Virus record (IMG/VR): IMGVR_UViG_3300042922_000661
Location: 1-64,000 of that record
Source: a virus
Length of the DNA: 64,000 bases
Reading direction: 5' to 3' (one strand)
Part shown: positions 1,277-44,033 of the stretch, piece after piece
Position numbering within the stretch: the stretch's first letter is position 1
Layout of the letters: the number at the start of each line of letters is the position of its first letter
The notes under the pieces: model-generated
What the model was told of the DNA's origin: nothing
The model's input: only the letters and a program-made list of their open reading frames with translations
Databases searched by the model: none
Position numbers and translations under genes: made by a program

Positions 1277-4200
1277 TATGCGAAATCTCCAATTCCAAAC
1301 TGACCACCATTAATTTTACGCCCAATCAATTGCCTGAAATAAACACCCATTCCGCGACCATCCGAAACGTTGGTATTAATTCCTGTTAAAACACAACCAC
1401 CAGGAACTTCATACGCCCGCCCTTGGCCAGTGCCTGAACCGCCAGAATACTGTTGGCCGCCACGTCCGAAATCTGACATGGCATTACTCGTCATTTCGTT
1501 GTAGCCTTGGTTACGAATCCATGACAACGCACCGGAAAGACTCGTGTTCCCCCCGAAATTACTGAAAATCGTGTATCCATCAGTAACATTACCCATGCGT
1601 ACAATGTCGCCGTTTTCCTGATAAGTTACCCCTCGACCGCCCCATTGCACGCTAACGTTGCCACCAAACCAACCGCCTCCCGAGACGCTCACATTTTGTC
1701 CGACTGATAACATCCCCCCTACGGATAAACCTCCTCCGACTGTCACATTGTGGGACATAGTTACCGCCCCACTATTGCCATTGAATGCAAATGGTCGCAA
1801 ATTGTTCCATGTGCCATCCGGATCATTTTCATTCGTGACCAGCAAATAATAGTTACTACCATCGAATCGGTGAATCATCCCCATCCGTCCAGAAGCTGGA
1901 CGGATACGCAAACCATCTGCGTCTTCTGCAACTACTCTGCCATAGACATACAACTTATTAACGGTAGTACGAGTCGTTAAAACGTTATTAGCGTAAGAGT
2001 CGAGAATGCCATCACCAGGGCAAACAAAGCCTGTATCAGAGTCACCAATATTGATAGAACCAGAGGTAGTATTAAGATTCCCGGTACCTGCATTTCCAAT
2101 AGAAATACGGTTAATGGCATTTAATGTATTTGCAGTAATTCTGCCATCTACATCGATTGACTTAAGAACGACTAAACCTTGTTCCATCCTGACCGTGCCG
2201 TTAGCCAGGTTAAATGCGATGGGCCGAAGGTCATTATACTTACCGTCAGTATCACCTTTGTTTGTAGCGAGTAAGTAAAAACTCTCATTATCATTTCTGA
2301 GAATGGCCGCATAATCAGCAGACTTCGCACGGAAAGCAAGCCCACCATTTTTTTGAACAATTTCATCCGCAATAGTGACTTTCTTTTCAATAGACACTTG
2401 CCCTTTGAAACGCGCGTCTGTCCGTACATCCAGCCCCACACTGCTAACAGGTAATGCGATATCCGTTCCGCCAATAATGGTCTGTCCGCGCATATAGTTT
2501 GGCGCGGTTCCCTGCATAAATAGGTTCCAGCGGTTTAAACCTTCGCGTGCTGTCTGAAGACCCTCAAAGGCATAGGCCGTTGCAATAACAGGGCTGGCTT
2601 TGTCATGCCCGCGGAACGAAGACATGAGCGCTACAGCTGCATTTTTGTTAACAACACTGCTGTTACCCCAAAATTCAACCACTTCAGCCACGGTTTGTCC
2701 GGTATTACCGTCACCTACTGACATTTCCACACCGAAACCAATGCCGCGTGTAGTCGCATCTGCTCCGATATTTGCATATGCCATCGCAACAATCTGCGAC
2801 GTTCCGGACATATTGCCTTTTCCGGGCGTGGTATTTCCAAGCGTCAGCATGCGGCTAGTACTGTCACTGCCACTACCTAATACAAGATGCCCTTTATCGC
2901 TGAATAGTGCGATATTCTGATTCCACGTTACGCCATTATCACGGCTATCTACGTCAAGACGCAGGCTGCTGCCGTCGCCTCTTAAGCGGAAGCCCGCCGC
3001 GTCCGCGTCACGGTCAATGAAAGTAAGTGTTGGTGCAAAGCTGTTAACCGTGATCCCTTGAGTGCCATCATTACTGCTGCCCGTAACCACAAGCGCAGCA
3101 TTGGTCAAATCGCCTACGGCTGTCGCACCTTTCGCCAGTACTTTTACCGGGCCAGTAAAGTCTGCACCACCAGTCACAGAAAGATTGCCGCCAACAGAAG
3201 CGTTATTGCGGAGGTTCATTGTCGATACGTTGGTTTCACCAGTGCCATCGCCTGACAATGTAAGCCACGTATTAGGAATAGAGTTGCCCCAGGTGACGGT
3301 ATCGGTACTGTCTGTAGACTGGCCCATATACCAGTGCAGAGAGTTATCCGCCTTTCGCCCGCGCAGATAATAGGCTTTGTCTCTGGTTTTAGCCTTCAGC
3401 TGCAGCGCAACCGAGTCCGCAGTAAAAAGTCCCGCGCCGTCAGACGTCAGACCTCCGCCACCAGTGATAGCCAGCCCGCCAGCACCCTGCAGCGTGGCTA
3501 AGCCGTCGCCACTGTTGAGTACAAAGCGCGCCGTGACCGTACCTGATGCCGAGCGCGCATCCAGCGCGATTCTTCCGCCGCCGTGCGTCATGTTAGTAGT
3601 CGTTAAGCCGCCGAGAATCCTGCCACTCCACGCATCGCCTCCCGTGGCCGCAACACGGCCAACGATCTGCATGATGTCTGTTTCGTATGCCGGGGGTTTA
3701 TCGTCAGGCTGATCCGTCCGCAAAAATGTCATTGACGGTACAGACGGCTCAGAGCGGATCACACCAATACGGTATCCAGCGCTGATTTGAGAACCAACGT
3801 CCAGATTTTTTGAGACCGTCAGCTTTGGCGTATTGATATTGGTTAGCTTACTTGTGCTGGTAATATCGTCGTTATCGCCTGCCTTTGCCGCGCCCAGATT
3901 AATCAGGTCCGCCAGCGTCATGCTGGCGCTGTCCATCACCTTCCGCCAGCCGTTTTTATCCGCACCGGCTGACAGCCCGGACCACGCCCAGTCGCCTGAA
4001 ACTTTACCGGCCAAACGCAGATACATCATGCCACCCTGCGCCACAAGCAGCTGTAGAAGTGCAGCGTCGGCATCATATTTACGGCGCATGTTGAATAGCT
4101 GGCCACGCAGTGTCTGCGTGGTTTTGCCAAGATCAATCGGGCCATCACTGAAGGTGCCGCTCAGTGTCCAGAAGGCATTTTGCTCAGTCACAGATACGTC

Positions 4201-37647: not shown

Positions 37648-38529
37648 ATGGAAAATGACGACGAAATCAAGACGATAGGTGATGCTCTTGTATACAGCTC
37701 TGAGCAAGAAGAAAAAAGTTATACACTGACACCTACCTCTAATCGGACTGTCCAGCCGATCGCGTTGATGCGTTTGGGTGTATTTGTGCCTGCTGTTCGC
37801 AATAAGCCCCAGCGCGGTAATGCCGTTATCGATGCCTCCGCAGATTTCGGGCAGCTTGAAATCGCTAAAGCTGAGGGTTACACCAATATCATGATCAAGG
37901 GCAGCAGACTTGATATGAGCACTGATTTTAAGACATGGATTGGTGCTATCCGGGCGTTCAGCAAATATGGTGCTGATAGTAATCGCATTAAGTTACCATT
38001 TACCGAATTTGCGAAGCTATGCGGAATTGCCGTAGATGATATCAACCAGCGTTCGCGTGATCGCTTCTTCAACTCCTTTCTAAGACTGGCCTCGCTTGTT
38101 ATCTCGTTTAAAAACAAAGACGGCAGCAAGGTGACAATAACGCATCTGCTTAATAGCGCTCATTTTGACACTGAGAAGGACGTGATTACTTTGGAAGGGG
38201 ATTCCCGACTATGGGAGCTTTATGCCTTCGATCACAAGGTATTACTGCAGTTAAAGGCTATCCAGGCACTGCCGCGTAAAGAGTCCGCCCAGGCGCTCTA
38301 CGTCTACATCGAGAGCCTGCCTACTGGATTCCTTCAAGTGTCTCTGGAGCGCCTTCGTGATCGCCTCAACCTGAACTCCACTATCAGCACACAGAACAAC
38401 GTCGTCCGTAAGGCCATGAAAGAGCTGGCTGACATTGGTTACTTGTCGTTTACGGAAGTTAAGAAGAATGGCGTGGTCTATTTCCAGATTCACTCACGTA
38501 AGCCTGACCTTCTGCCTAACAAAGAATAA
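37648..38529 (+). CDS. repA: Replication initiator RepA (P1/RepFIB family)
   Basis: 293 aa; TVQP.ALMRLGVFVP, G.RLDM.TDFK.W.G and AQALY..IESLP motifs; flanked by iterons. Confidence 0.95.
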   Translation: MENDDEIKTIGDALVYSSEQEEKSYTLTPTSNRTVQPIALMRLGVFVPAVRNKPQRGNAVIDASADFGQLEIAKAEGYTNIMIKGSRLDMSTDFKTWIGAIRAFSKYGADSNRIKLPFTEFAKLCGIAVDDINQRSRDRFFNSFLRLASLVISFKNKDGSKVTITHLLNSAHFDTEKDVITLEGDSRLWELYAFDHKVLLQLKAIQALPRKESAQALYVYIESLPTGFLQVSLERLRDRLNLNSTISTQNNVVRKAMKELADIGYLSFTEVKKNGVVYFQIHSRKPDLLPNKE

Positions 38530-38532
38530 TCA

Positions 38533-39003
38533 TTGCTGGTTTCATGGCAGGTGTTGTTGGTTTCATGGCAGCATTGCTGGAATACCGGCGATTAATGCTG
38601 GTGACTTGTGGTTTTAGAGTGTTTTTTGCTCGAAAGCCGCTTGTTACCATGAAACCAACAATATTTACTGTGACATAGCCACCGAATTACCATGAAACCA
38701 GCAATGTCCCTAAGCACCTGACTAACTCACCATGAAACCAGCAACCGTCTTACTGCAGCGGCTATGTCAGTAATAGTATGACGCTATGGCCGTGACTGAA
38801 GCAGGGGAAGGAGTATTGATGCCTCATGGTAAATGTTGCTGGTTTCATGGTTGGCGTTGCTGGTTTCATGATAAGCCCACCAACTGTGGCAGGTATTGAG
38901 CTTCATTCGAGGGGATAGGGGCTGTTTACCATGAATAGAGCAACGCCATAACAGGGTTTTTTGGCAACAATGATTTAAGCAATATTAGCCATGAAACCAG
39001 CAA
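38533..39003. repeat. Copy-control iterons (incA-like)
   Basis: Eight good and one degenerate copy of TTG(C/T)TGGTTTCATG in both orientations (38533, 38554, 38647, 38690, 38730, 38836, 38857, 38929, 38989). Confidence 0.92.
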
Positions 39004-39107
39004 TAAGCTGGCTTAATTATTCTGATAAAAATAGAGAGCTACTCCCAACAAAAAAGCCTCCGAAAAGACTTTTTTGTTAGCCGAGAAGAGCAAAAGCGCA
39101 GAAGCGA

Positions 39108-39908
39108 CTATCTTGACTTAAAGGGATATCCAAACGGCTGTAATCCAGGCCAAGCTCTACCAGATAGAGAAGGATGATCTGACGGATGCTCATCGTCTAC
39201 CGCATGGATATTTATAGGCTCAATACGGCTCGTCTCAGGATTCTGCACATTCAGCGTCAAGCTGATTTTTGTGAGGTCAGCACCTTTAGCAATAGCCAGA
39301 GTTAGCTGATGTTCCAACTGTGATACAAGCGAATCTTTGGCTGCCATGTTCTCAGTATTGGATGTTGGAACATACGCTGCGGCCATGCGTTCGGCTAGAG
39401 TTGGCACGTTTAAAATCTGCCACAGCTTATCAGTTCTCTTTGATCCATATGGTATACCTAGCATGCCGGGCAAATGTGCTTGAACACCTCGTAACACTTG
39501 AGCTTGACGACGTAGGTCGTCTATATTCAAAAACTGTGTAGTGAAATGATATTCTTCTTTCGAGGTTGCACCTTCTTCATCCTCTTCGCCTCGTTCGCTG
39601 CTCGTTAGGATGGAATACAAAGTTTGTGTGCTTAAAGCGTCAGTGTCGGTAATTAGTAAATCTTCCGGACTGATAGTTTTCATCGTGCCAATAGGTATAC
39701 CGTTAAGATCACTTCCTGATGCAGCATTTAGGGACGCTTCTTCTTTAGAATCAGGTTTAGTAGCCGCATTGATCACTACAGCCATCTCGTCCATAGAGCG
39801 CTCTGCAGCTCTTTTTACGATATCTTGCGCCTGCGGCGATGCCTCTGGGCCAAACAGGTCCAGAAGCGAATACTCATCAGGTGCAAAGGCTTCAGATTCA
39901 AATGACAT
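39108..39908 (-). CDS. Hypothetical acidic protein downstream of the zeta toxin gene
   Basis: 266 aa; AGGAG SD; 25 bp after the zeta stop; terminator at ~39047-39078. Confidence 0.7.
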   Translation of the reverse strand: MSFESEAFAPDEYSLLDLFGPEASPQAQDIVKRAAERSMDEMAVVINAATKPDSKEEASLNAASGSDLNGIPIGTMKTISPEDLLITDTDALSTQTLYSILTSSERGEEDEEGATSKEEYHFTTQFLNIDDLRRQAQVLRGVQAHLPGMLGIPYGSKRTDKLWQILNVPTLAERMAAAYVPTSNTENMAAKDSLVSQLEHQLTLAIAKGADLTKISLTLNVQNPETSRIEPINIHAVDDEHPSDHPSLSGRAWPGLQPFGYPFKSR

Positions 39909-39933
39909 ATAAACTCCTATAACTGGCTATTAA

Positions 39934-40653
39934 TTATACGCCTATATGTGCCAAGTCATCAATGCAAGTGTAAGGGCAATGATGGGAGTCAGCCCAGGTA
40001 TCTTTTGTCACGTTTCGAATTGTCTCAATGCTGAAGCCCGTAGGATTGGCTGGTTCTCTATAACGACGGAAAACGTTCAATGTGAATTGACCATCATACT
40101 TTTCAAGAACATGCTTTATAACTTTCCTGCCGTTGATAAAGTTATTCTTCAGCACAGCAAGTGGGACAACGCGTGATCTCTGCTGCGCGTATACCCAAGC
40201 AATTGCCGGATCTAGGTATACATAATTTAGGATTAATGTGTAACCAGCTGCGATAGCAGCATCAAAGTTACTATCAGCGATACCTTTACTAGCAAACGTT
40301 GAGTCCATGATTATCTGATAGCGATTATCAAGAGCGCGAGCGTAAATGGCATTAACCATACTGGATGCAGGCTTTTGAAAGCAAACAGAATTTGCTTCGT
40401 TGTAATAGGGGAACCACCAGCGGAAATCATCGGCGTCAATACGGACAAAGTTCGTCTGCTTACCACCGAGGATGACATTATTTATTAATTCAGTCTTTCC
40501 GGATGCAGGTGAGCCAGCCATAAAAACTATCCCGCGTGCGCCCTCATTGATAGGCTTTTTTTCTTTAGTCAGATGGCTATATAAAACATCTTCTACAGCG
40601 TCTTTTACCTGTAGCCCCAGAGGCTCAAGCAAAGTTTTATCCATAAAATCCAT
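39934..40653 (-). CDS. Zeta toxin family P-loop kinase
   Basis: MAGSPASGKT Walker A, IDADDFR, I.DST, R.R.VP. Start moved to ATG 40653 (AGGA SD) because the longer ORF runs through a terminator. Confidence 0.85.
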   Translation of the reverse strand: MDFMDKTLLEPLGLQVKDAVEDVLYSHLTKEKKPINEGARGIVFMAGSPASGKTELINNVILGGKQTNFVRIDADDFRWWFPYYNEANSVCFQKPASSMVNAIYARALDNRYQIIMDSTFASKGIADSNFDAAIAAGYTLILNYVYLDPAIAWVYAQQRSRVVPLAVLKNNFINGRKVIKHVLEKYDGQFTLNVFRRYREPANPTGFSIETIRNVTKDTWADSHHCPYTCIDDLAHIGV

Positions 40654-40727
40654 GATTTCATCCTGACTGTGTGAATAGCTTAATATCGGCAAAAGTAGAT
40701 ATTTGTTCAAGTCGCTCGATTGAGAAT

Positions 40728-40753
40728 AAAAAAAACCGCCCGAAGGCGGCTTC
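40728..40753 (-). terminator. Intrinsic terminator of the small-peptide mRNA
   Basis: GCCGCC-TTCG-GGCGG followed by T8, a few nt after the peptide stop codon. Confidence 0.85.
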
Positions 40754-40756
40754 ATA

Positions 40757-40879
40757 TCAGTTGCTATGGATGACTGTCACCGGCACGTGGATGTAGGTAA
40801 TGATGTTCATACCTTCACCTCCGTTTGGGTGCAGTAATGCCACCAGCAACGACACAACGTAAAATGCTTTACGTGTCAT
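40757..40879 (-). CDS. 40-aa hydrophobic peptide, putative type I toxin
   Basis: MTRKAFYVVSLLVALLHPNGGEGMNIITYIHVPVTVIHSN; TAAGG SD 8 nt upstream; own terminator; absent from the ORF track because of its size. Confidence 0.7.
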   Translation of the reverse strand: MTRKAFYVVSLLVALLHPNGGEGMNIITYIHVPVTVIHSN

Positions 40880-41159
40880 TGTTTAGGCCTTACAGGTTCT
40901 GACCAGTGGCGTTCGGTGCGCCCCGCAAGACATAAAACGCATGCTTGTGTTCGGTCGAAGTTAATCGGGCAAGTAAGGTACCGAATCGGCTGAGAATCCA
41001 CCTCACTGCTTCGTCTCTACTAAGGATGCCACAACCACACAGGTGGTTTCATTGCCTTTCTTCCCATGCGTGAATAATTTGCCGAAAAAAGTATCATTCT
41101 GATGTTTTTGGCTTTTCCTACAGCACAACTTTCCTGAAAGAGTTTTTTCAAAAGTCGGG

Positions 41160-41187
41160 TTGCAAAGGAGGTCATGGGACGTATACT
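41160..41187 (+). promoter_or_regulatory. Sigma70 promoter of the sRNA
   Basis: TTGCAA-16 bp-TATACT, 7 nt upstream of the 18-nt antisense segment. Confidence 0.7.
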
Positions 41188-41193
41188 GGCGTT

Positions 41194-41330
41194 GAAAACG
41201 CATGCTTGTGTTTGCTGTTTTTAGCAAATCAGCAGTGGTGAAAATTGCCTGAGAACAATTTTCGCCTTCTGGAGAAATGCCTGAGAACATTTTTCTGGAT
41301 TCAATAAAGCCGCCTACGGGCGGTTTTTTT
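41194..41330 (+). ncRNA. Putative antitoxin sRNA (~135 nt)
   Basis: Bounded by a promoter and a terminator; its 5' 18 nt equal 40934-40951 (antisense to the peptide mRNA leader); three hairpins, two with an identical CCUGAGAA loop. Confidence 0.75.
41307..41330 (+). terminator. sRNA intrinsic terminator
   Basis: GCCGCC-TACG-GGCGG-T7. Confidence 0.85.
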
Positions 41331-41948
41331 GTATCTATAACAAGCATATCGCAACCACGCTTCCCGTTCATAGCCCTTGAAGGCAGAGCAATATTACTTT
41401 GGAAGCTACTACTCAAAATCTCATCCACCAGACGTTTTCGCGCCTGAGTCATATCGTAGGTTCAACACGCCACACGCCTCAAACACTATCGCTTCTATTG
41501 TGAGTGTTAATACACAAAGCAAAGCAACCTTCTGACGCATTCTACCACGCTGGCTTGCGTGACTCACAATTTTGAGATGCACGCTTACAGCAAGAATATG
41601 TTGGCAATTTCTACATCTTACCTGTGTTTTTTTACAGCTTTCAACTCCATGCAATGAATAGCCTCGCACACCGTGCATGCCCTTCATACCGTGGCTTAGC
41701 CAGAATCATAGATGTAAAGATTCCCGCTTAACAAGCACACCCTGGTAAGGGTTGTATGATTTGTATTTGCGCAACAACTGTAAAGCCAGCAACGCTGGGC
41801 CTTGTAGCCCGAAAAAATTTTTTGTAAATGTCACTGGCCAGAAAAAGGGCTTAAAAAGCCCCTAATGATTAGCCTTGAGGAAGGTAGCGCAAGCTATGAG
41901 AGCATGACTTGCGCAGGCAAAGATAAAATGCGGGATGATGGCGGGTTC

Positions 41949-42164
41949 TTAGATATTGTGCTTCAGCAGAGCGAAGAGCATTGGCCTGCTATCAATGGTG
42001 TTTCCCTTCAGGTCTTTACATACCCAATTCTTTTTCAAGAACGTGATATAGCAATCTGTACGGTTTATGCGTAAGGGTTCGGTTCTACCCGCTTCTACAA
42101 AGCCTTTTGCCTTCCAAATGCCGCGCATCTTATCCAATTCGATCTGCTTCAAACCTAATTTCAT
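41949..42164 (-). CDS. Small basic hypothetical protein
   Basis: 71-aa ATG ORF preceded by a candidate operator (42177-42192), divergent from umuD. Confidence 0.5.
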   Translation of the reverse strand: MKLGLKQIELDKMRGIWKAKGFVEAGRTEPLRINRTDCYITFLKKNWVCKDLKGNTIDSRPMLFALLKHNI

Positions 42165-42246
42165 AGTGGTGAAATTAATAAAATTTTAGAATGTACTTAT
42201 TCTTATATGAAATCGCCCACTGGTCAATTCCATACTTCTAATCTTA

Positions 42247-42266
42247 TACTGTATTTTTGTACAGTA
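42247..42266. promoter_or_regulatory. LexA (SOS) box
   Basis: TACTGTATTTTTGTACAGTA (CTGT-N8-ACAG) just upstream of the umuD SD. Confidence 0.92.
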
Positions 42267-42279
42267 ATAGGGAGGGGCT

Positions 42280-42723
42280 ATGATGCGATTAGAAGTGATA
42301 GCAATACCGGACGAAGCCGCGCCACGACAGGCTTTTAAACAATTTCTCGAAACGGTTGCAGCAGGCTTCCCGTCTCCGGCCATTGGATATGAAGACACAC
42401 CCCTGGACCTAAATGATTATTGTGTCCGGGCCAAAACGGCGACTTATTTCGTGCGATGTGAGGGTGAGTCGATGATAGGGGCCGGTATTTTTGACGGTGA
42501 TTTGCTGGTGGTGGATAAATCGAAGGCAGCGGCAGACGGGCAGATCGTAATTGCCTCAGTAGACGGAGAATTTACGGTAAAAAAGCTGCAGCTTAGGCCG
42601 GTGCCGATGCTGCTGGCCATGAACCCGCGCTATAAGCCGATCCCTATCGAGCCTGATTTACTGGAAATTTGGGGGGTGGTTACTTATGTGATCCACCGTA
42701 CTGACAATGTTCCTGCACAGTGA
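42280..42723 (+). CDS. umuD: DNA polymerase V subunit UmuD (cleavable)
   Basis: VAA-GFPSPA cleavage site, GESM catalytic Ser, FTVKKL catalytic Lys. Confidence 0.95.
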   Translation: MMRLEVIAIPDEAAPRQAFKQFLETVAAGFPSPAIGYEDTPLDLNDYCVRAKTATYFVRCEGESMIGAGIFDGDLLVVDKSKAAADGQIVIASVDGEFTVKKLQLRPVPMLLAMNPRYKPIPIEPDLLEIWGVVTYVIHRTDNVPAQ

Positions 42724-43972
42724 CGTTAACGCCTTCTACGTTTCGGCGGAGCTGGCATTTAGGCCGGACCTTTACGGGCGTCCTGTCGTCGTGGCGACGA
42801 ACAACGATGGCTGTATTGCGGCACTGAACCGCGAGGCTAATTACGTGGGCCTGAAGCGGGGCGATCCACTGTTTAAAATTCGAGACACCATCCGGCGCTA
42901 TAATGTGGTGGTATTCAGCAGCAACTACACGCTGTACGACTCATTCAGTAAGCGTTTCCATACGATTGTGGGTGAGTATGTCCCTAACCTGGAAGCGTAC
43001 TCAATTGACGAGGTGTTTGGCTCACTGGACGGCATGGAGAAGCTGGTGGACTTCCAGACATTCGGGGAAGAGATCAGGCGCACCGTCATCCAGCACACCA
43101 CGATGAAGTGTGGCATAGGGATAGCGGAGACCAAGACGCTCTGTAAGGTTGCCACGCACGCGGCAAAGACCTGGCCTAAAACAGGCGGCGTAGTGGTGCT
43201 GACCGATCCGGTGCGGCGCGATAAGCTGCTGTCGCTGCTGGACGTCTCAGAGACGTGGGGTGTCGGCAGAAAGATTGGTGCCAGGCTGCAACTGATGAAC
43301 ATCAAGACGATGCTCGACCTTGCCCGTGCCGACACAACCATGATCCGTAAAAACTTCAACGTGATGCTGGAGCGCACCGTCCGGGAGCTGCGCGGTGAGC
43401 GTTGTTTCGAGCTCGAAGAGAACCCGCCCACCAAACAGCAGATTGTCGTAAGCCGTTCATTCGGCAAACGGCTCACCAGCCTGGATGAAGTGAGCAACGC
43501 TGTTTGCTTCTTTGCCACCAGCGCCGGTGAAAAGCTGCGGCGTGAAAAGCAGTATTGCCGGAACATAACGGTATTCATCCAGACCAGCAAACATGACTCG
43601 CGTCACCCGTATTACTCACGCGGGGCCAGCCACTCGTTTACCACGGCCACACAGGACACGCGTGATCTGATTGATGCCGCCGTGCGCGGCCTCAGAGCTA
43701 TCTGGCGCAATGGCTACGAGTATGCAAAGGCTGGCGTGATGTTGGGGGAGTTCTGCGGCTCGGAGCAGCAGCTGAACCTGTTTGACGAGGCTCCGCCGCG
43801 TCCAGGCAGCGATAAACTGATGGAGTTGATGGATAAGCTGAACAGCTACCAGCGCGGCACGCTATTTATCGCCGGTCAGGGCGTTAATCCGGCCTATCAG
43901 ATGAAGCGGGAAATGTTATCTCCGCGCTATCTGACGCGTTGGGAAGAGCTACCTATTGTCAAAATGAAGTGA
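42707..43972 (+). CDS. umuC: DNA polymerase V subunit UmuC
   Basis: D.N.FY.S.E..FRPDL, NNDGC, YSIDE and MKREMLSPRY motifs. Confidence 0.96.
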   Translation: MFLHSDVNAFYVSAELAFRPDLYGRPVVVATNNDGCIAALNREANYVGLKRGDPLFKIRDTIRRYNVVVFSSNYTLYDSFSKRFHTIVGEYVPNLEAYSIDEVFGSLDGMEKLVDFQTFGEEIRRTVIQHTTMKCGIGIAETKTLCKVATHAAKTWPKTGGVVVLTDPVRRDKLLSLLDVSETWGVGRKIGARLQLMNIKTMLDLARADTTMIRKNFNVMLERTVRELRGERCFELEENPPTKQQIVVSRSFGKRLTSLDEVSNAVCFFATSAGEKLRREKQYCRNITVFIQTSKHDSRHPYYSRGASHSFTTATQDTRDLIDAAVRGLRAIWRNGYEYAKAGVMLGEFCGSEQQLNLFDEAPPRPGSDKLMELMDKLNSYQRGTLFIAGQGVNPAYQMKREMLSPRYLTRWEELPIVKMK

Positions 43973-44033
43973 GTGAACGCTGGTGGTGAACGATAAACAT
44001 CTAAAATGAACGAAATTTAGATACTGGCTATAA

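What the first reader, a model, noticed from the sequence alone, without database searches (positions are those of the whole stretch)
41237..41299. Twin hairpins displaying the identical 8-nt loop CCUGAGAA
Seen: GGTGAAAATTG-CCTGAGAA-CAATTTTCGCC and TCTGGAGAAATG-CCTGAGAA-CATTTTTCTGGA. The stems differ and use G-U pairs while the loops are invariant, which points to selection on RNA structure. CTGAGAA also occurs at 40990-40996, so both loops are complementary to UUCUCAG further up the putative toxin leader. Inference: either a second kissing contact on the toxin mRNA, or a protein/RNA-binding module (sponge or anti-phage decoy), making the sRNA bifunctional.
Basis: partly seen in the sequence, partly recalled or inferred. 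Interest (0 to 1): 0.72.

Follow-up and report, generated by a model that had tools for sequence, protein, structure and literature searches.

The report
Twin kissing loops on an antitoxin-like sRNA
A small RNA on a Pantoea phage-plasmid displays the same 7-letter sequence on two neighbouring hairpin loops, and comparison of about 30 related loci indicates that these loops base-pair with one matching hairpin loop in the leader of the divergent small-peptide (toxin-like) mRNA, so this is a doubled docking contact in an undescribed but ordinary kind of RNA-controlled toxin-antitoxin-like module.

Summary
Hairpins at 41237-41266 and 41268-41299 both display CCUGAGAA, and CTGAGAA recurs at 40990-40996.

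The hairpins lie in a roughly 140-nt plus-strand sRNA with a promoter at 41160-41187 and a terminator at 41306-41327. It is transcribed divergently from a minus-strand 40-codon ORF (40879-40757).

I collected 38 copies (27 distinct) from Pantoea plasmids, IMG/VR records and metagenomes.
- The stems covary: 96% of cells pair and 10 pairs show double changes.
- The loops are nearly invariant.
- The complementary UUCUCAG sits in the apical loop of a conserved, covarying hairpin of the mRNA leader.
- In one monophyletic clade (6 loci, 5 distinct), both sRNA loops and the mRNA loop carry the same change, CUGAGAA to CUGAUAA. No locus shows an intermediate state.

A protein that read the loop sequence cannot explain a coordinated change in the complementary strand. 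Nothing found supports the sponge or decoy reading.

The module resembles timP/TimR, tisB/IstR-1 and zorO/OrzO in layout. It matches no Rfam, Pfam or NCBIfam family. Toxicity, repression and transcript ends are untested. The scan had noted this locus only on this same window.

I rate it a new variant of a known kind, of moderate interest.

The parts
41160..41187 (+). sigma-70-like promoter of the sRNA (TTGCAA, 16 nt, TATACT)
   Evidence: Consensus scan. The -35 element and CGTATACTG are conserved in all homologues.
41193..41332 (+). Inferred sRNA of about 140 nt. It has a 5' pairing region, a small hairpin, the twin hairpins and a terminator. The ends are inferred, not mapped.
   Evidence: Promoter and terminator positions, fold, conservation. 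Metatranscriptome contigs of relatives cover it, which is only weak evidence.
41195..41212 (+). 5' pairing region. These 18 nt are identical to 40934-40951 and so complementary to the minus-strand mRNA leader. The pairing extends to about 20 bp with one G-U.
   Evidence: In each homologue the sRNA 5' region and the leader copy change together. Duplex energy is -31.9 kcal/mol, but opening costs 6.9 kcal/mol in the sRNA and 5.0 in the mRNA.
41211..41228 (+). Small hairpin (UUUGCU / AGCAAA) between the pairing region and the twin hairpins
   Evidence: Centroid fold. Relatives show UUCGC/GCGAA, a compensatory change.
41237..41266 (+). Twin hairpin 1: 11-bp stem, loop CCUGAGAA at 41248-41255. It lies colinear with the mRNA loop.
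   Evidence: 6 of 11 pairs show double changes. The offset from the 18-mer to the loop is 54 nt in the sRNA gene and 56 nt in the leader.
41268..41299 (+). Twin hairpin 2: 12-bp stem with G-U pairs, loop CCUGAGAA at 41280-41287. It is a 32-nt tandem repeat of hairpin 1.
   Evidence: 4 of 12 pairs show double changes.
41306..41332 (+). Intrinsic terminator of the sRNA
   Evidence: Nearly invariant in homologues.
40972..41007 (-). Leader hairpin SL1 of the small-ORF mRNA. It has an 8-bp outer stem, an inner GG/CC stem, an apical loop AUUCUCAG (7-mer at 40996-40990) and an 8-nt 3' bulge.
   Evidence: Single-sequence folds. The alifold consensus shows covarying stem pairs, for example UA:8 and CG:5 at one pair. 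Opening the loop costs 1.7 kcal/mol.
40934..40951 (-). Target of the sRNA 5' region in the mRNA leader, 55-72 nt upstream of the start codon
40757..40879 (-). 40-codon ORF: basic N-terminus, hydrophobic segment, Gly/Asn-rich linker and a conserved NxPVTVIHSN tail. It is toxin-like, but toxicity is untested.
   Evidence: The peptide motif is conserved across nucleotide-divergent type A and type B loci, with an excess of third-position changes. Pfam and NCBIfam give no match.
40725..40753 (-). Intrinsic terminator of the small-ORF mRNA, nearly identical to the sRNA terminator and in inverted orientation
   Evidence: Model R1 also hits it weakly.

Best explanation
The twin hairpins are the rapid-recognition part of a trans-acting, divergently encoded antitoxin-type sRNA. 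Each displays CUGAGAA, which contains a YUNR-type CUGA, in a fully open 8-nt loop. The leader of the divergent small-peptide mRNA displays the exact complement, UUCUCAG, in the apical loop of a conserved hairpin (SL1). I propose that a 7-bp loop-loop (kissing) contact docks the two RNAs. This brings the sRNA 5' region next to its 18-20-nt target, which lies 38 nt downstream of SL1 in the mRNA. Both of those segments are partly buried in local structure, and the longer duplex then forms. The resulting complex sits 55-72 nt upstream of the start codon. It probably blocks an upstream element needed for ribosome loading, and/or creates an RNase III substrate, as in timP/TimR, tisB/IstR-1 and zorO/OrzO. 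Hairpin 1 is the colinear partner of SL1. Hairpin 2 is a 32-nt tandem duplicate that offers a second, redundant copy of the docking loop, giving a higher association rate and tolerance of a loop mutation. What is shown here: the structures, the complementarity, the conservation and the co-variation. What is inferred: the order of binding, the effect on translation or decay, the toxicity of the peptide, and the transcript ends.
For: (1) The hairpins are real and under selection. On 27 distinct copies, 96.1% of cells pair, 10 pairs have double changes, and no shuffle reached the observed covariation. (2) The loops are far more conserved than the stems. On a masked-alignment tree of 22 type A copies with many long branches (for example 0.32, 0.20, 0.17 and 0.16 substitutions per site), the 21 loop and target positions show only one coordinated triple change and one insertion. 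(3) Every locus with CUGAGAA loops whose leader was held has GG(G)-CTGAGAA-[T/A]CC(C) 243-308 nt upstream, except L140. Every locus with CUGAUAA loops has GGG-CTGATAA-TCCCC; these are L003, L151/L177, L172, L181, L174/L175 and L156. That clade is monophyletic with support 1.0, has diverged internally, and contains no intermediate state. (4) The mRNA 7-mer lies in the apical loop of a hairpin whose stem covaries. The same architecture occurs in type B loci, whose leader and peptide sequences are otherwise different. (5) Energetics fit nucleation at the loops. Opening the sRNA loops costs 0.01-0.02 kcal/mol and the mRNA loop 1.7. The cognate 7-mer duplex is -7.5 (GAG) or -5.4 (GAU) kcal/mol, against -2.8 for non-cognate pairs. 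Opening the long pairing segments costs 6.9 and 5.0. (6) The layout is colinear: the 18-mer and the 7-mer are 56 nt apart in the leader and 54 nt apart in the sRNA gene. (7) One replicon (L151/L177) carries two cassettes side by side, and they differ in both the 5' pairing region and the loop letter (GAU versus GAG). This is what addressing by base pairing would predict. (8) Redundancy: L164 has a mismatch in loop 1 only. L163 has a C-to-U change in loop 2 that keeps a G-U pair. (9) Precedent: TimR pairs by its 5' 18 nt in the timP 5'UTR and acts on an upstream structured element (PMC7667032, PMC11228461).
Against: There is no experimental evidence for either transcript, for binding or for toxicity. 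The only RNA data are metatranscriptome contigs of relatives, which cannot show strand, ends or true transcription. The promoter and 5' end of the small-ORF mRNA could not be identified, so whether SL1 lies inside the transcript is inferred from conservation. The loop/target co-variation comes from a single lineage, so it is one evolutionary episode, although it involves three coordinated substitutions. L140 has a 1-nt insertion in the target (CTGAGTAAC), which allows only an interrupted 5+3 bp contact. Only one complementary loop was found in the mRNA, so the need for two sRNA loops is explained only by inference.
Confidence: 0.68

Rival explanations
1. Anti-tertiary-contact variant of the main model. 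The SL1 loop of the mRNA normally makes an intramolecular contact (a pseudoknot) needed for translation, as SL1-SL3 does in timP. The sRNA loops would imitate that partner and compete with it. The kissing contact would then be the inhibitory step itself rather than only a docking step.
For: In timP a 7-bp SL1-SL3 pseudoknot is essential for translation and is disrupted by TimR (PMC11228461). In the window's mRNA a downstream segment, CUG-GUC-AGAAC, could pair with the loop through CUG and AGAA. In three loci of the GAU clade this segment reads AUAAC, tracking the loop change.
Against: The candidate partner is interrupted by 3 nt. It carries a mismatch in five close relatives (AGUAC) and in L151 (AGAAC with a GAU loop). 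It is absent from the more distant type A loci and was not found in type B. The RNAalifold consensus pairs the adjacent CUGGUC with the 5' part of the sRNA target instead.
Confidence: 0.12
2. Protein-binding module or sponge/decoy. The two identical loops would bind a dimeric RNA-binding protein or titrate another RNA, giving the sRNA a second function.
For: Two identical, well-exposed loops 32 nt apart would suit a dimer. Only one complementary loop exists in the cognate mRNA, so one loop is formally spare.
Against: The mRNA carries the complement of the loop sequence, not the same sequence. A protein that reads CUGAGAA therefore cannot explain why the mRNA site changes together with both loops. 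The loops contain no GGA (CsrA/RsmA-type) motif. One replicon holds both loop alleles, which would need two protein specificities. The loop decamer and its complement have no other exact copy in the 64-kb window.
Confidence: 0.1
3. Purely structural hairpins. They would stabilise the sRNA against nucleases or aid folding and termination, and the identical loops would simply be left over from a recent tandem duplication.
For: The two hairpins are evidently a 32-nt tandem duplicate. Stable 3' hairpins commonly protect sRNAs.
Against: The duplication is old. It is shared by type A and type B cassettes, whose stems have diverged with many compensatory changes, yet the loops stay identical. A leftover would not co-vary with a site about 250 nt away.
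Confidence: 0.05
4. DNA-level sites. The three direct copies of CTGAGAA would be operator half-sites for a DNA-binding protein that controls the divergent promoters.
For: There are three copies in the same orientation, two of them spaced 32 bp apart (about three helical turns). A change in protein specificity could change all three together.
Against: Two of the copies lie inside the transcribed sRNA, 60-100 bp downstream of its promoter. All three sit exactly in loops of hairpins whose stems are kept by compensatory changes, which is selection at the RNA level. No candidate regulator gene travels with the cassette; its neighbours differ between type A and type B contexts.
Confidence: 0.03

Closest known systems
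timP/TimR (ryfA locus) of Salmonella and E. coli
   Same: Both have a peptide of about 40 aa with a basic N-terminus and a signal-like hydrophobic segment. Both have a divergently encoded sRNA whose 5' 18 nt pair within a long structured 5'UTR, well upstream of the start codon. In both, an upstream hairpin (SL1) loop takes part in a 7-bp RNA contact (PMC7667032, PMC11228461).
   Different: No sequence relationship is detectable. Rfam ryfA does not match. BLASTP against E. coli TimP finds nothing, and NCBIfam finds nothing. E. coli TimR folds without twin hairpins. In timP the 7-bp contact is intramolecular, whereas here it is between sRNA and mRNA and is offered twice. The present loci sit on plasmids and phage-plasmids, not on the chromosome.
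tisB/IstR-1, zorO/OrzO, shoB/OhsC and dinQ/AgrB (divergent type I toxin-antitoxin loci of E. coli)
   Same: Divergent gene pair. A short direct repeat in the DNA gives about 18-20 nt of complementarity in the 5'UTR rather than at the ribosome-binding site. The ORF encodes a small hydrophobic peptide (own knowledge; PMC3919570 listed).
   Different: Rfam finds none of these families. No LexA box is present, unlike tisB and dinQ. As far as I know, these systems are described with one linear pairing region and no additional loop-loop contact.
Multi-site antisense recognition that starts at loops: ColE1 RNAI/RNAII, par of pAD1 (RNA I/RNA II), bsrG/SR4, aapA1/IsoA1, OxyS-fhlA
   Same: Recognition starts at exposed hairpin loops, often with a YUNR U-turn, and is followed by further pairing. 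In par, direct DNA repeats transcribed in opposite directions supply the complementarity. Two kissing contacts occur in aapA1/IsoA1 and OxyS-fhlA (own knowledge; PMC5416894, PMC3834814 and PMC7472228 listed).
   Different: In those systems each loop has its own partner. Here two identical loops face one partner loop. The Rfam RNAI model matches only weakly, at 27 bits against a threshold of 47. This reflects the shared shape of three hairpins, not homology. The sRNA here is not antisense to a replication primer.

Membership tests
Type I toxin-antitoxin module (general kind) | Small RNA with sequence complementarity to the mRNA of an adjacent small ORF | tested here: met
   An 18-nt identical direct repeat (41195-41212 and 40934-40951) plus the 7-mer contact. 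Both co-vary across homologues.
Type I toxin-antitoxin module (general kind) | Small, hydrophobic peptide that is toxic when overproduced | not testable with these tools
   The 40-aa ORF is conserved at the protein level with a hydrophobic N-terminal segment. Toxicity is untested.
Type I toxin-antitoxin module (general kind) | The sRNA represses translation or stability of the toxin mRNA | not testable with these tools
   Only inferred from the layout and by analogy.
timP/TimR (Rfam ryfA RF00126; NCBIfam TimP) | The mRNA matches the ryfA covariance model | tested here: not met
   No match at E <= 1 in 38000-44000, and none at E <= 10 in the whole 95-kb record. The E. coli control was found.
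timP/TimR (Rfam ryfA RF00126; NCBIfam TimP) | The peptide is homologous to TimP | tested here: not met
   NCBIfam and Pfam give no family at E <= 10. BLASTP against E. coli TimP gives no alignment at E <= 100.
timP/TimR (Rfam ryfA RF00126; NCBIfam TimP) | Divergent sRNA whose 5' end pairs with about 18 nt of the 5'UTR | tested here: met
   compared with PMC7667032.
timP/TimR (Rfam ryfA RF00126; NCBIfam TimP) | Intramolecular SL1-SL3 pseudoknot in the 5'UTR | tested here: inconclusive
   A weak, interrupted candidate is present in some loci only.
tisB/IstR-1 and dinQ/AgrB | SOS (LexA) control of the toxin gene | tested here: not met
   CTG-N10-CAG is absent from the window's cassette and from all but two relatives. 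In those two it lies at non-homologous places.
ColE1-type RNAI (RF00106) | Score at or above the Rfam gathering threshold; antisense to the replication primer | tested here: not met
   27 bits against a threshold of 47, E = 0.067. The replicon uses a Rep3-type initiator with iterons.
CsrB/RsmZ-type protein sponge | Repeated GGA motifs displayed in hairpin loops | tested here: not met
   The loops read CCUGAGAA. The only GGA lies inside the stem of hairpin 2.

The most novel reading that the evidence does not exclude
The loop letter (CUGAGAA versus CUGAUAA) acts as a short address code, working together with the 5' pairing region. It would keep paralogous cassettes in the same cell or replicon from cross-talking. 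The doubled loop would make the sRNA a bivalent clamp that can hold two mRNA molecules, or dock faster than a single-loop antitoxin. That would be a natural, evolvable two-key design for orthogonal RNA control, and one that could be copied for synthetic RNA devices.
Probability: 0.2. Interest if true: 0.6.

Novelty: new variant of a known kind. Interest (0 to 1): 0.45.

Why it matters
Type I toxin-antitoxin modules are usually described with a single pairing region. In the divergent, trans-encoded class (tisB, zorO, timP) it is still unclear how the antitoxin finds a structured leader quickly. This locus adds an undescribed peptide/sRNA family that is absent from Rfam, Pfam and NCBIfam. It occurs on Pantoea plasmids and a phage-plasmid. 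Natural variation in the family already provides a compensatory-mutation experiment: all three copies of the 7-mer switch together. This makes a two-step mechanism (kissing, then zippering) directly testable with two natural alleles. The duplicated docking loop is an unusual design, and it may be relevant to plasmid incompatibility or orthogonality and to RNA-device engineering. It does not reveal a new kind of biology.

Tried and rejected
None of them had hairpins. It therefore says nothing about distribution.
- BLAST of the locus against E. coli genomes and against the phage collection found nothing.
Erwiniaceae chromosomes were therefore not surveyed.
- Public RNA runs: four metatranscriptome runs hold contigs of relatives covering both arms of the locus. 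Contigs cannot show strand, ends, abundance or even transcription, so I do not count this as evidence of expression. One 131-nt insert flanked by adapters (40819-40949) is a single observation.
- The peptide was searched in Pfam, NCBIfam, the ESM Atlas and the 5.8-billion-protein set. The family libraries and the Atlas returned nothing, and the protein set returned only five close relatives without names.
- A uORF starting inside the sRNA target (19 codons) was rejected because its start codon is not conserved.
- A sigma-54 or clear sigma-70 promoter for the small-ORF mRNA was looked for by eye around the conserved TGGCAT..TTAGT block. I found nothing convincing, so the 5' end of the mRNA is unknown.
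- Sequestration of the Shine-Dalgarno sequence appeared in some single-sequence folds but not in the alignment consensus. I make no claim about it.
- LexA control was rejected.

Full report
**The observation**

Hairpin 1 spans 41237-41266, with an 11-bp stem and the loop CCTGAGAA at 41248-41255. Hairpin 2 spans 41268-41299, with a 12-bp stem containing G-U pairs and the same loop at 41280-41287. CTGAGAA also occurs at 40990-40996.

RNAfold of 41190-41332 predicts both hairpins and a terminator. The energy is -54.7 kcal/mol, with z = -5.5 against shuffles. The decamer GCCTGAGAAC occurs nowhere else in the window.

**The setting**

- The hairpins lie between a sigma-70-like promoter (TTGCAA, 16 nt, TATACT; 41160-41187) and an intrinsic terminator (41306-41327) on the plus strand. 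Together these imply an sRNA of about 140 nt.
- The minus strand carries a 40-codon ORF (40879-40757), followed by a nearly identical terminator at 40753-40732.
- Nucleotides 41195-41212 of the sRNA are identical to 40934-40951. They are therefore complementary to the minus-strand leader, 55-72 nt upstream of the start codon.
- The record is a 95-kb IMG/VR virus record with direct terminal repeats, and it holds one copy of the module.
- All database relatives are Pantoea plasmids.
- Neighbouring genes are a Rep3-type initiator with iterons, a zeta-toxin-family gene and umuD.

**Relatives**

BLAST found eight Pantoea plasmids. I then scanned IMG/VR and the JGI metagenomes with a pattern built from the promoter and the sequence just before the terminator, so that it did not depend on the loop sequence. 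A covariance model of the twin hairpins plus terminator confirmed the matches. This gave 38 copies, 27 of them distinct.

Two cassette types share the twin hairpins.
- Type A encodes peptides like that of the window. In the plasmid records it lies between repB and umuDC.
- Type B has a different leader, a different 5' pairing region and a divergent peptide that keeps the C-terminal N-x-P-V/I-T-V/I-I motif. It lies in conjugative plasmids between an SOS-response-associated peptidase gene and a DUF6685 gene.

**The hairpins are selected as RNA structures**

On the 27 distinct copies, 96.1% of cells form standard pairs. Ten pairs show changes on both sides. None of 500 shuffles reached the observed covariation. 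Sliding the register drops pairing to about 46-54%.

The loops, by contrast, are almost invariant.

**The loops co-vary with the leader site**

- In every locus with CUGAGAA loops whose leader was held, except L140, the leader has GG(G)-CTGAGAA-[T/A]CC(C), 243-308 nt upstream of the hairpin module.
- In every locus whose two loops read CUGAUAA, the leader site reads GGG-CTGATAA-TCCCC. These loci are L003, L151/L177, L172, L181, L174/L175 and L156.
- A tree built with the three 7-mers masked places these loci in one clade with support 1.0. The clade has diverged internally, and no locus shows an intermediate state. This is one evolutionary episode, but it comprises three substitutions at the same position of three 7-mers that are otherwise nearly frozen across long branches.
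- The mRNA carries the complement of the loop sequence. Base pairing explains the coordinated change; a protein that reads the loop sequence does not.
- There are three exceptions:
  - L164 has a mismatch in loop 1 only.
  - L163 has a C-to-U change in loop 2 that keeps a G-U pair.
  - L140 has a 1-nt insertion in the leader site, which leaves an interrupted 5+3 bp contact.

**The leader site is displayed in a loop**

Single-sequence folds and the alignment consensus place UUCUCAG in the apical 8-nt loop of a hairpin, SL1 (41007-40972, minus strand). SL1 has an inner GG/CC stem, an 8-9-nt bulge on its 3' side and an outer stem that covaries. Type B loci keep the same architecture despite unrelated flanking sequence.

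**Energetics and geometry**

| Quantity | kcal/mol |
|---|---|
| Opening either sRNA loop | 0.01-0.02 |
| Opening the mRNA loop | 1.7 |
| Cognate 7-mer duplex, GAG allele | -7.5 |
| Cognate 7-mer duplex, GAU allele | -5.4 |
| Non-cognate 7-mer pairs | -2.8 |
| Long 5' duplex | -31.9 |
| Opening the sRNA 5' pairing segment | 6.9 |
| Opening the mRNA target segment | 5.0 |

The order and spacing of the two contacts are colinear. The 18-mer and the 7-mer are 56 nt apart in the leader and 54 nt apart in the sRNA gene, measured to loop 1. Hairpin 1 is therefore the colinear partner of SL1, and hairpin 2 is a 32-nt tandem duplicate. This layout suggests that the sRNA gene and the leader descend from a longer direct repeat of which only two segments are still held identical. 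That last point is inference.

**Mechanism proposed**

I propose that a loop-loop contact docks the RNAs. The loop contains a YUNR-type CUGA. The 5' region of the sRNA then zippers onto its target. The complex well upstream of the start codon would then block an upstream ribosome-loading element and/or invite RNase III cleavage. TimR, IstR-1 and OrzO are described to act in this way (PMC7667032, PMC11228461; the rest from established knowledge).

The second loop most simply gives a second chance of docking and tolerance of mutation. One replicon carries two cassettes that differ in both keys, GAU with the type A pairing region and GAG with the type B one. This fits addressing by base pairing. 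It is a single case; the other nine whole records searched hold one cassette each.

A variant of the model is that the loops compete with an intramolecular partner of SL1, as in the timP pseudoknot. It has only a weak and inconsistently conserved candidate partner.

**Comparison with known families**

- Rfam gives only a sub-threshold RNAI match, 27 bits against a threshold of 47. This reflects the shared shape of three hairpins.
- The ryfA model does not match the record, while the E. coli control does.
- The peptide matches no Pfam or NCBIfam family.
- It shows no BLASTP similarity to E. coli TimP.
- It has five unnamed close relatives in the large protein set.
- It has no usable neighbour in the ESM Atlas.
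- E. coli TimR has no twin hairpins.
- No LexA box is present.

The locus therefore works like the divergent type I modules, most like timP/TimR, but is not a detectable member of any of them.

**Limits**

- Neither transcript is mapped.
- The mRNA promoter was not found.
- Toxicity and repression are untested.
- The RNA-run data are contigs only.
- Chromosomes of Erwiniaceae could not be surveyed.
- The co-variation rests on one clade.

**Verdict**

The kissing-contact reading is supported, and the sponge or decoy reading is unsupported. This is an undescribed family of a known kind with an unusual doubled docking loop, and it is of moderate interest.

Noticed in passing
window 39934-40662 (-) and 39108-39908 (-): A zeta-toxin-family P-loop gene (Pfam Zeta_toxin, E = 9e-29) begins right after the terminator of the small-ORF mRNA. 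No epsilon-like gene lies upstream. It is followed by a 266-aa ORF with no Pfam match. This pair is absent at this position in the related plasmids.
   Followed up: partly
window 40725-40753 and 41306-41332; L151 cassettes: The cassette is bracketed by nearly identical terminators in inverted orientation. About 20 nt beyond the sRNA terminator (GTATCTGCAAYAAGCATA) is also conserved between type A and type B cassettes. The roughly 600-bp module may therefore move as a unit.
   Followed up: no
L151 168-1179 (same as L177 791-1802): Two cassettes sit in tandem about 900 bp apart on one provirus or plasmid record. One is type A with CUGAUAA loops and the other is type B with CUGAGAA loops.
   Followed up: partly
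L003 about 2110-3534: In plasmid pPA-MXU-90 an IS3-family element is inserted into the terminator of the sRNA gene. The small ORF and the leader are intact.
   Followed up: no
window 41003-41452 (-); L001 1533-1859 (-): A hypothetical protein annotated in a related plasmid, and the matching 149-codon ORF here, run antisense across the sRNA gene and the indel-rich spacer. This is most likely a spurious gene call.
   Followed up: partly
window 40893-40904 (minus-strand mRNA GGUCAGAACC): This leader segment varies among relatives as CAGAAC, CAGUAC or CAUAAC. The variation partly tracks the G/U state of the SL1 loop. It is a possible weak intramolecular partner of the loop, but it is unexplained.
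   Followed up: partly
window 38540-38900: Direct repeats (iteron-like) lie immediately downstream of the Rep3-type initiator gene at 37648-38529. In the ORF list they appear as repeated MKP.. and FHG.. reading frames.
   Followed up: no
window 40810-40824 (-): A strong internal Shine-Dalgarno-like GGAGGUGA lies 5 nt before Met24 of the 40-codon ORF. It could give a 17-aa product. It is conserved in type A, but type B has no Met at this position.
   Followed up: no
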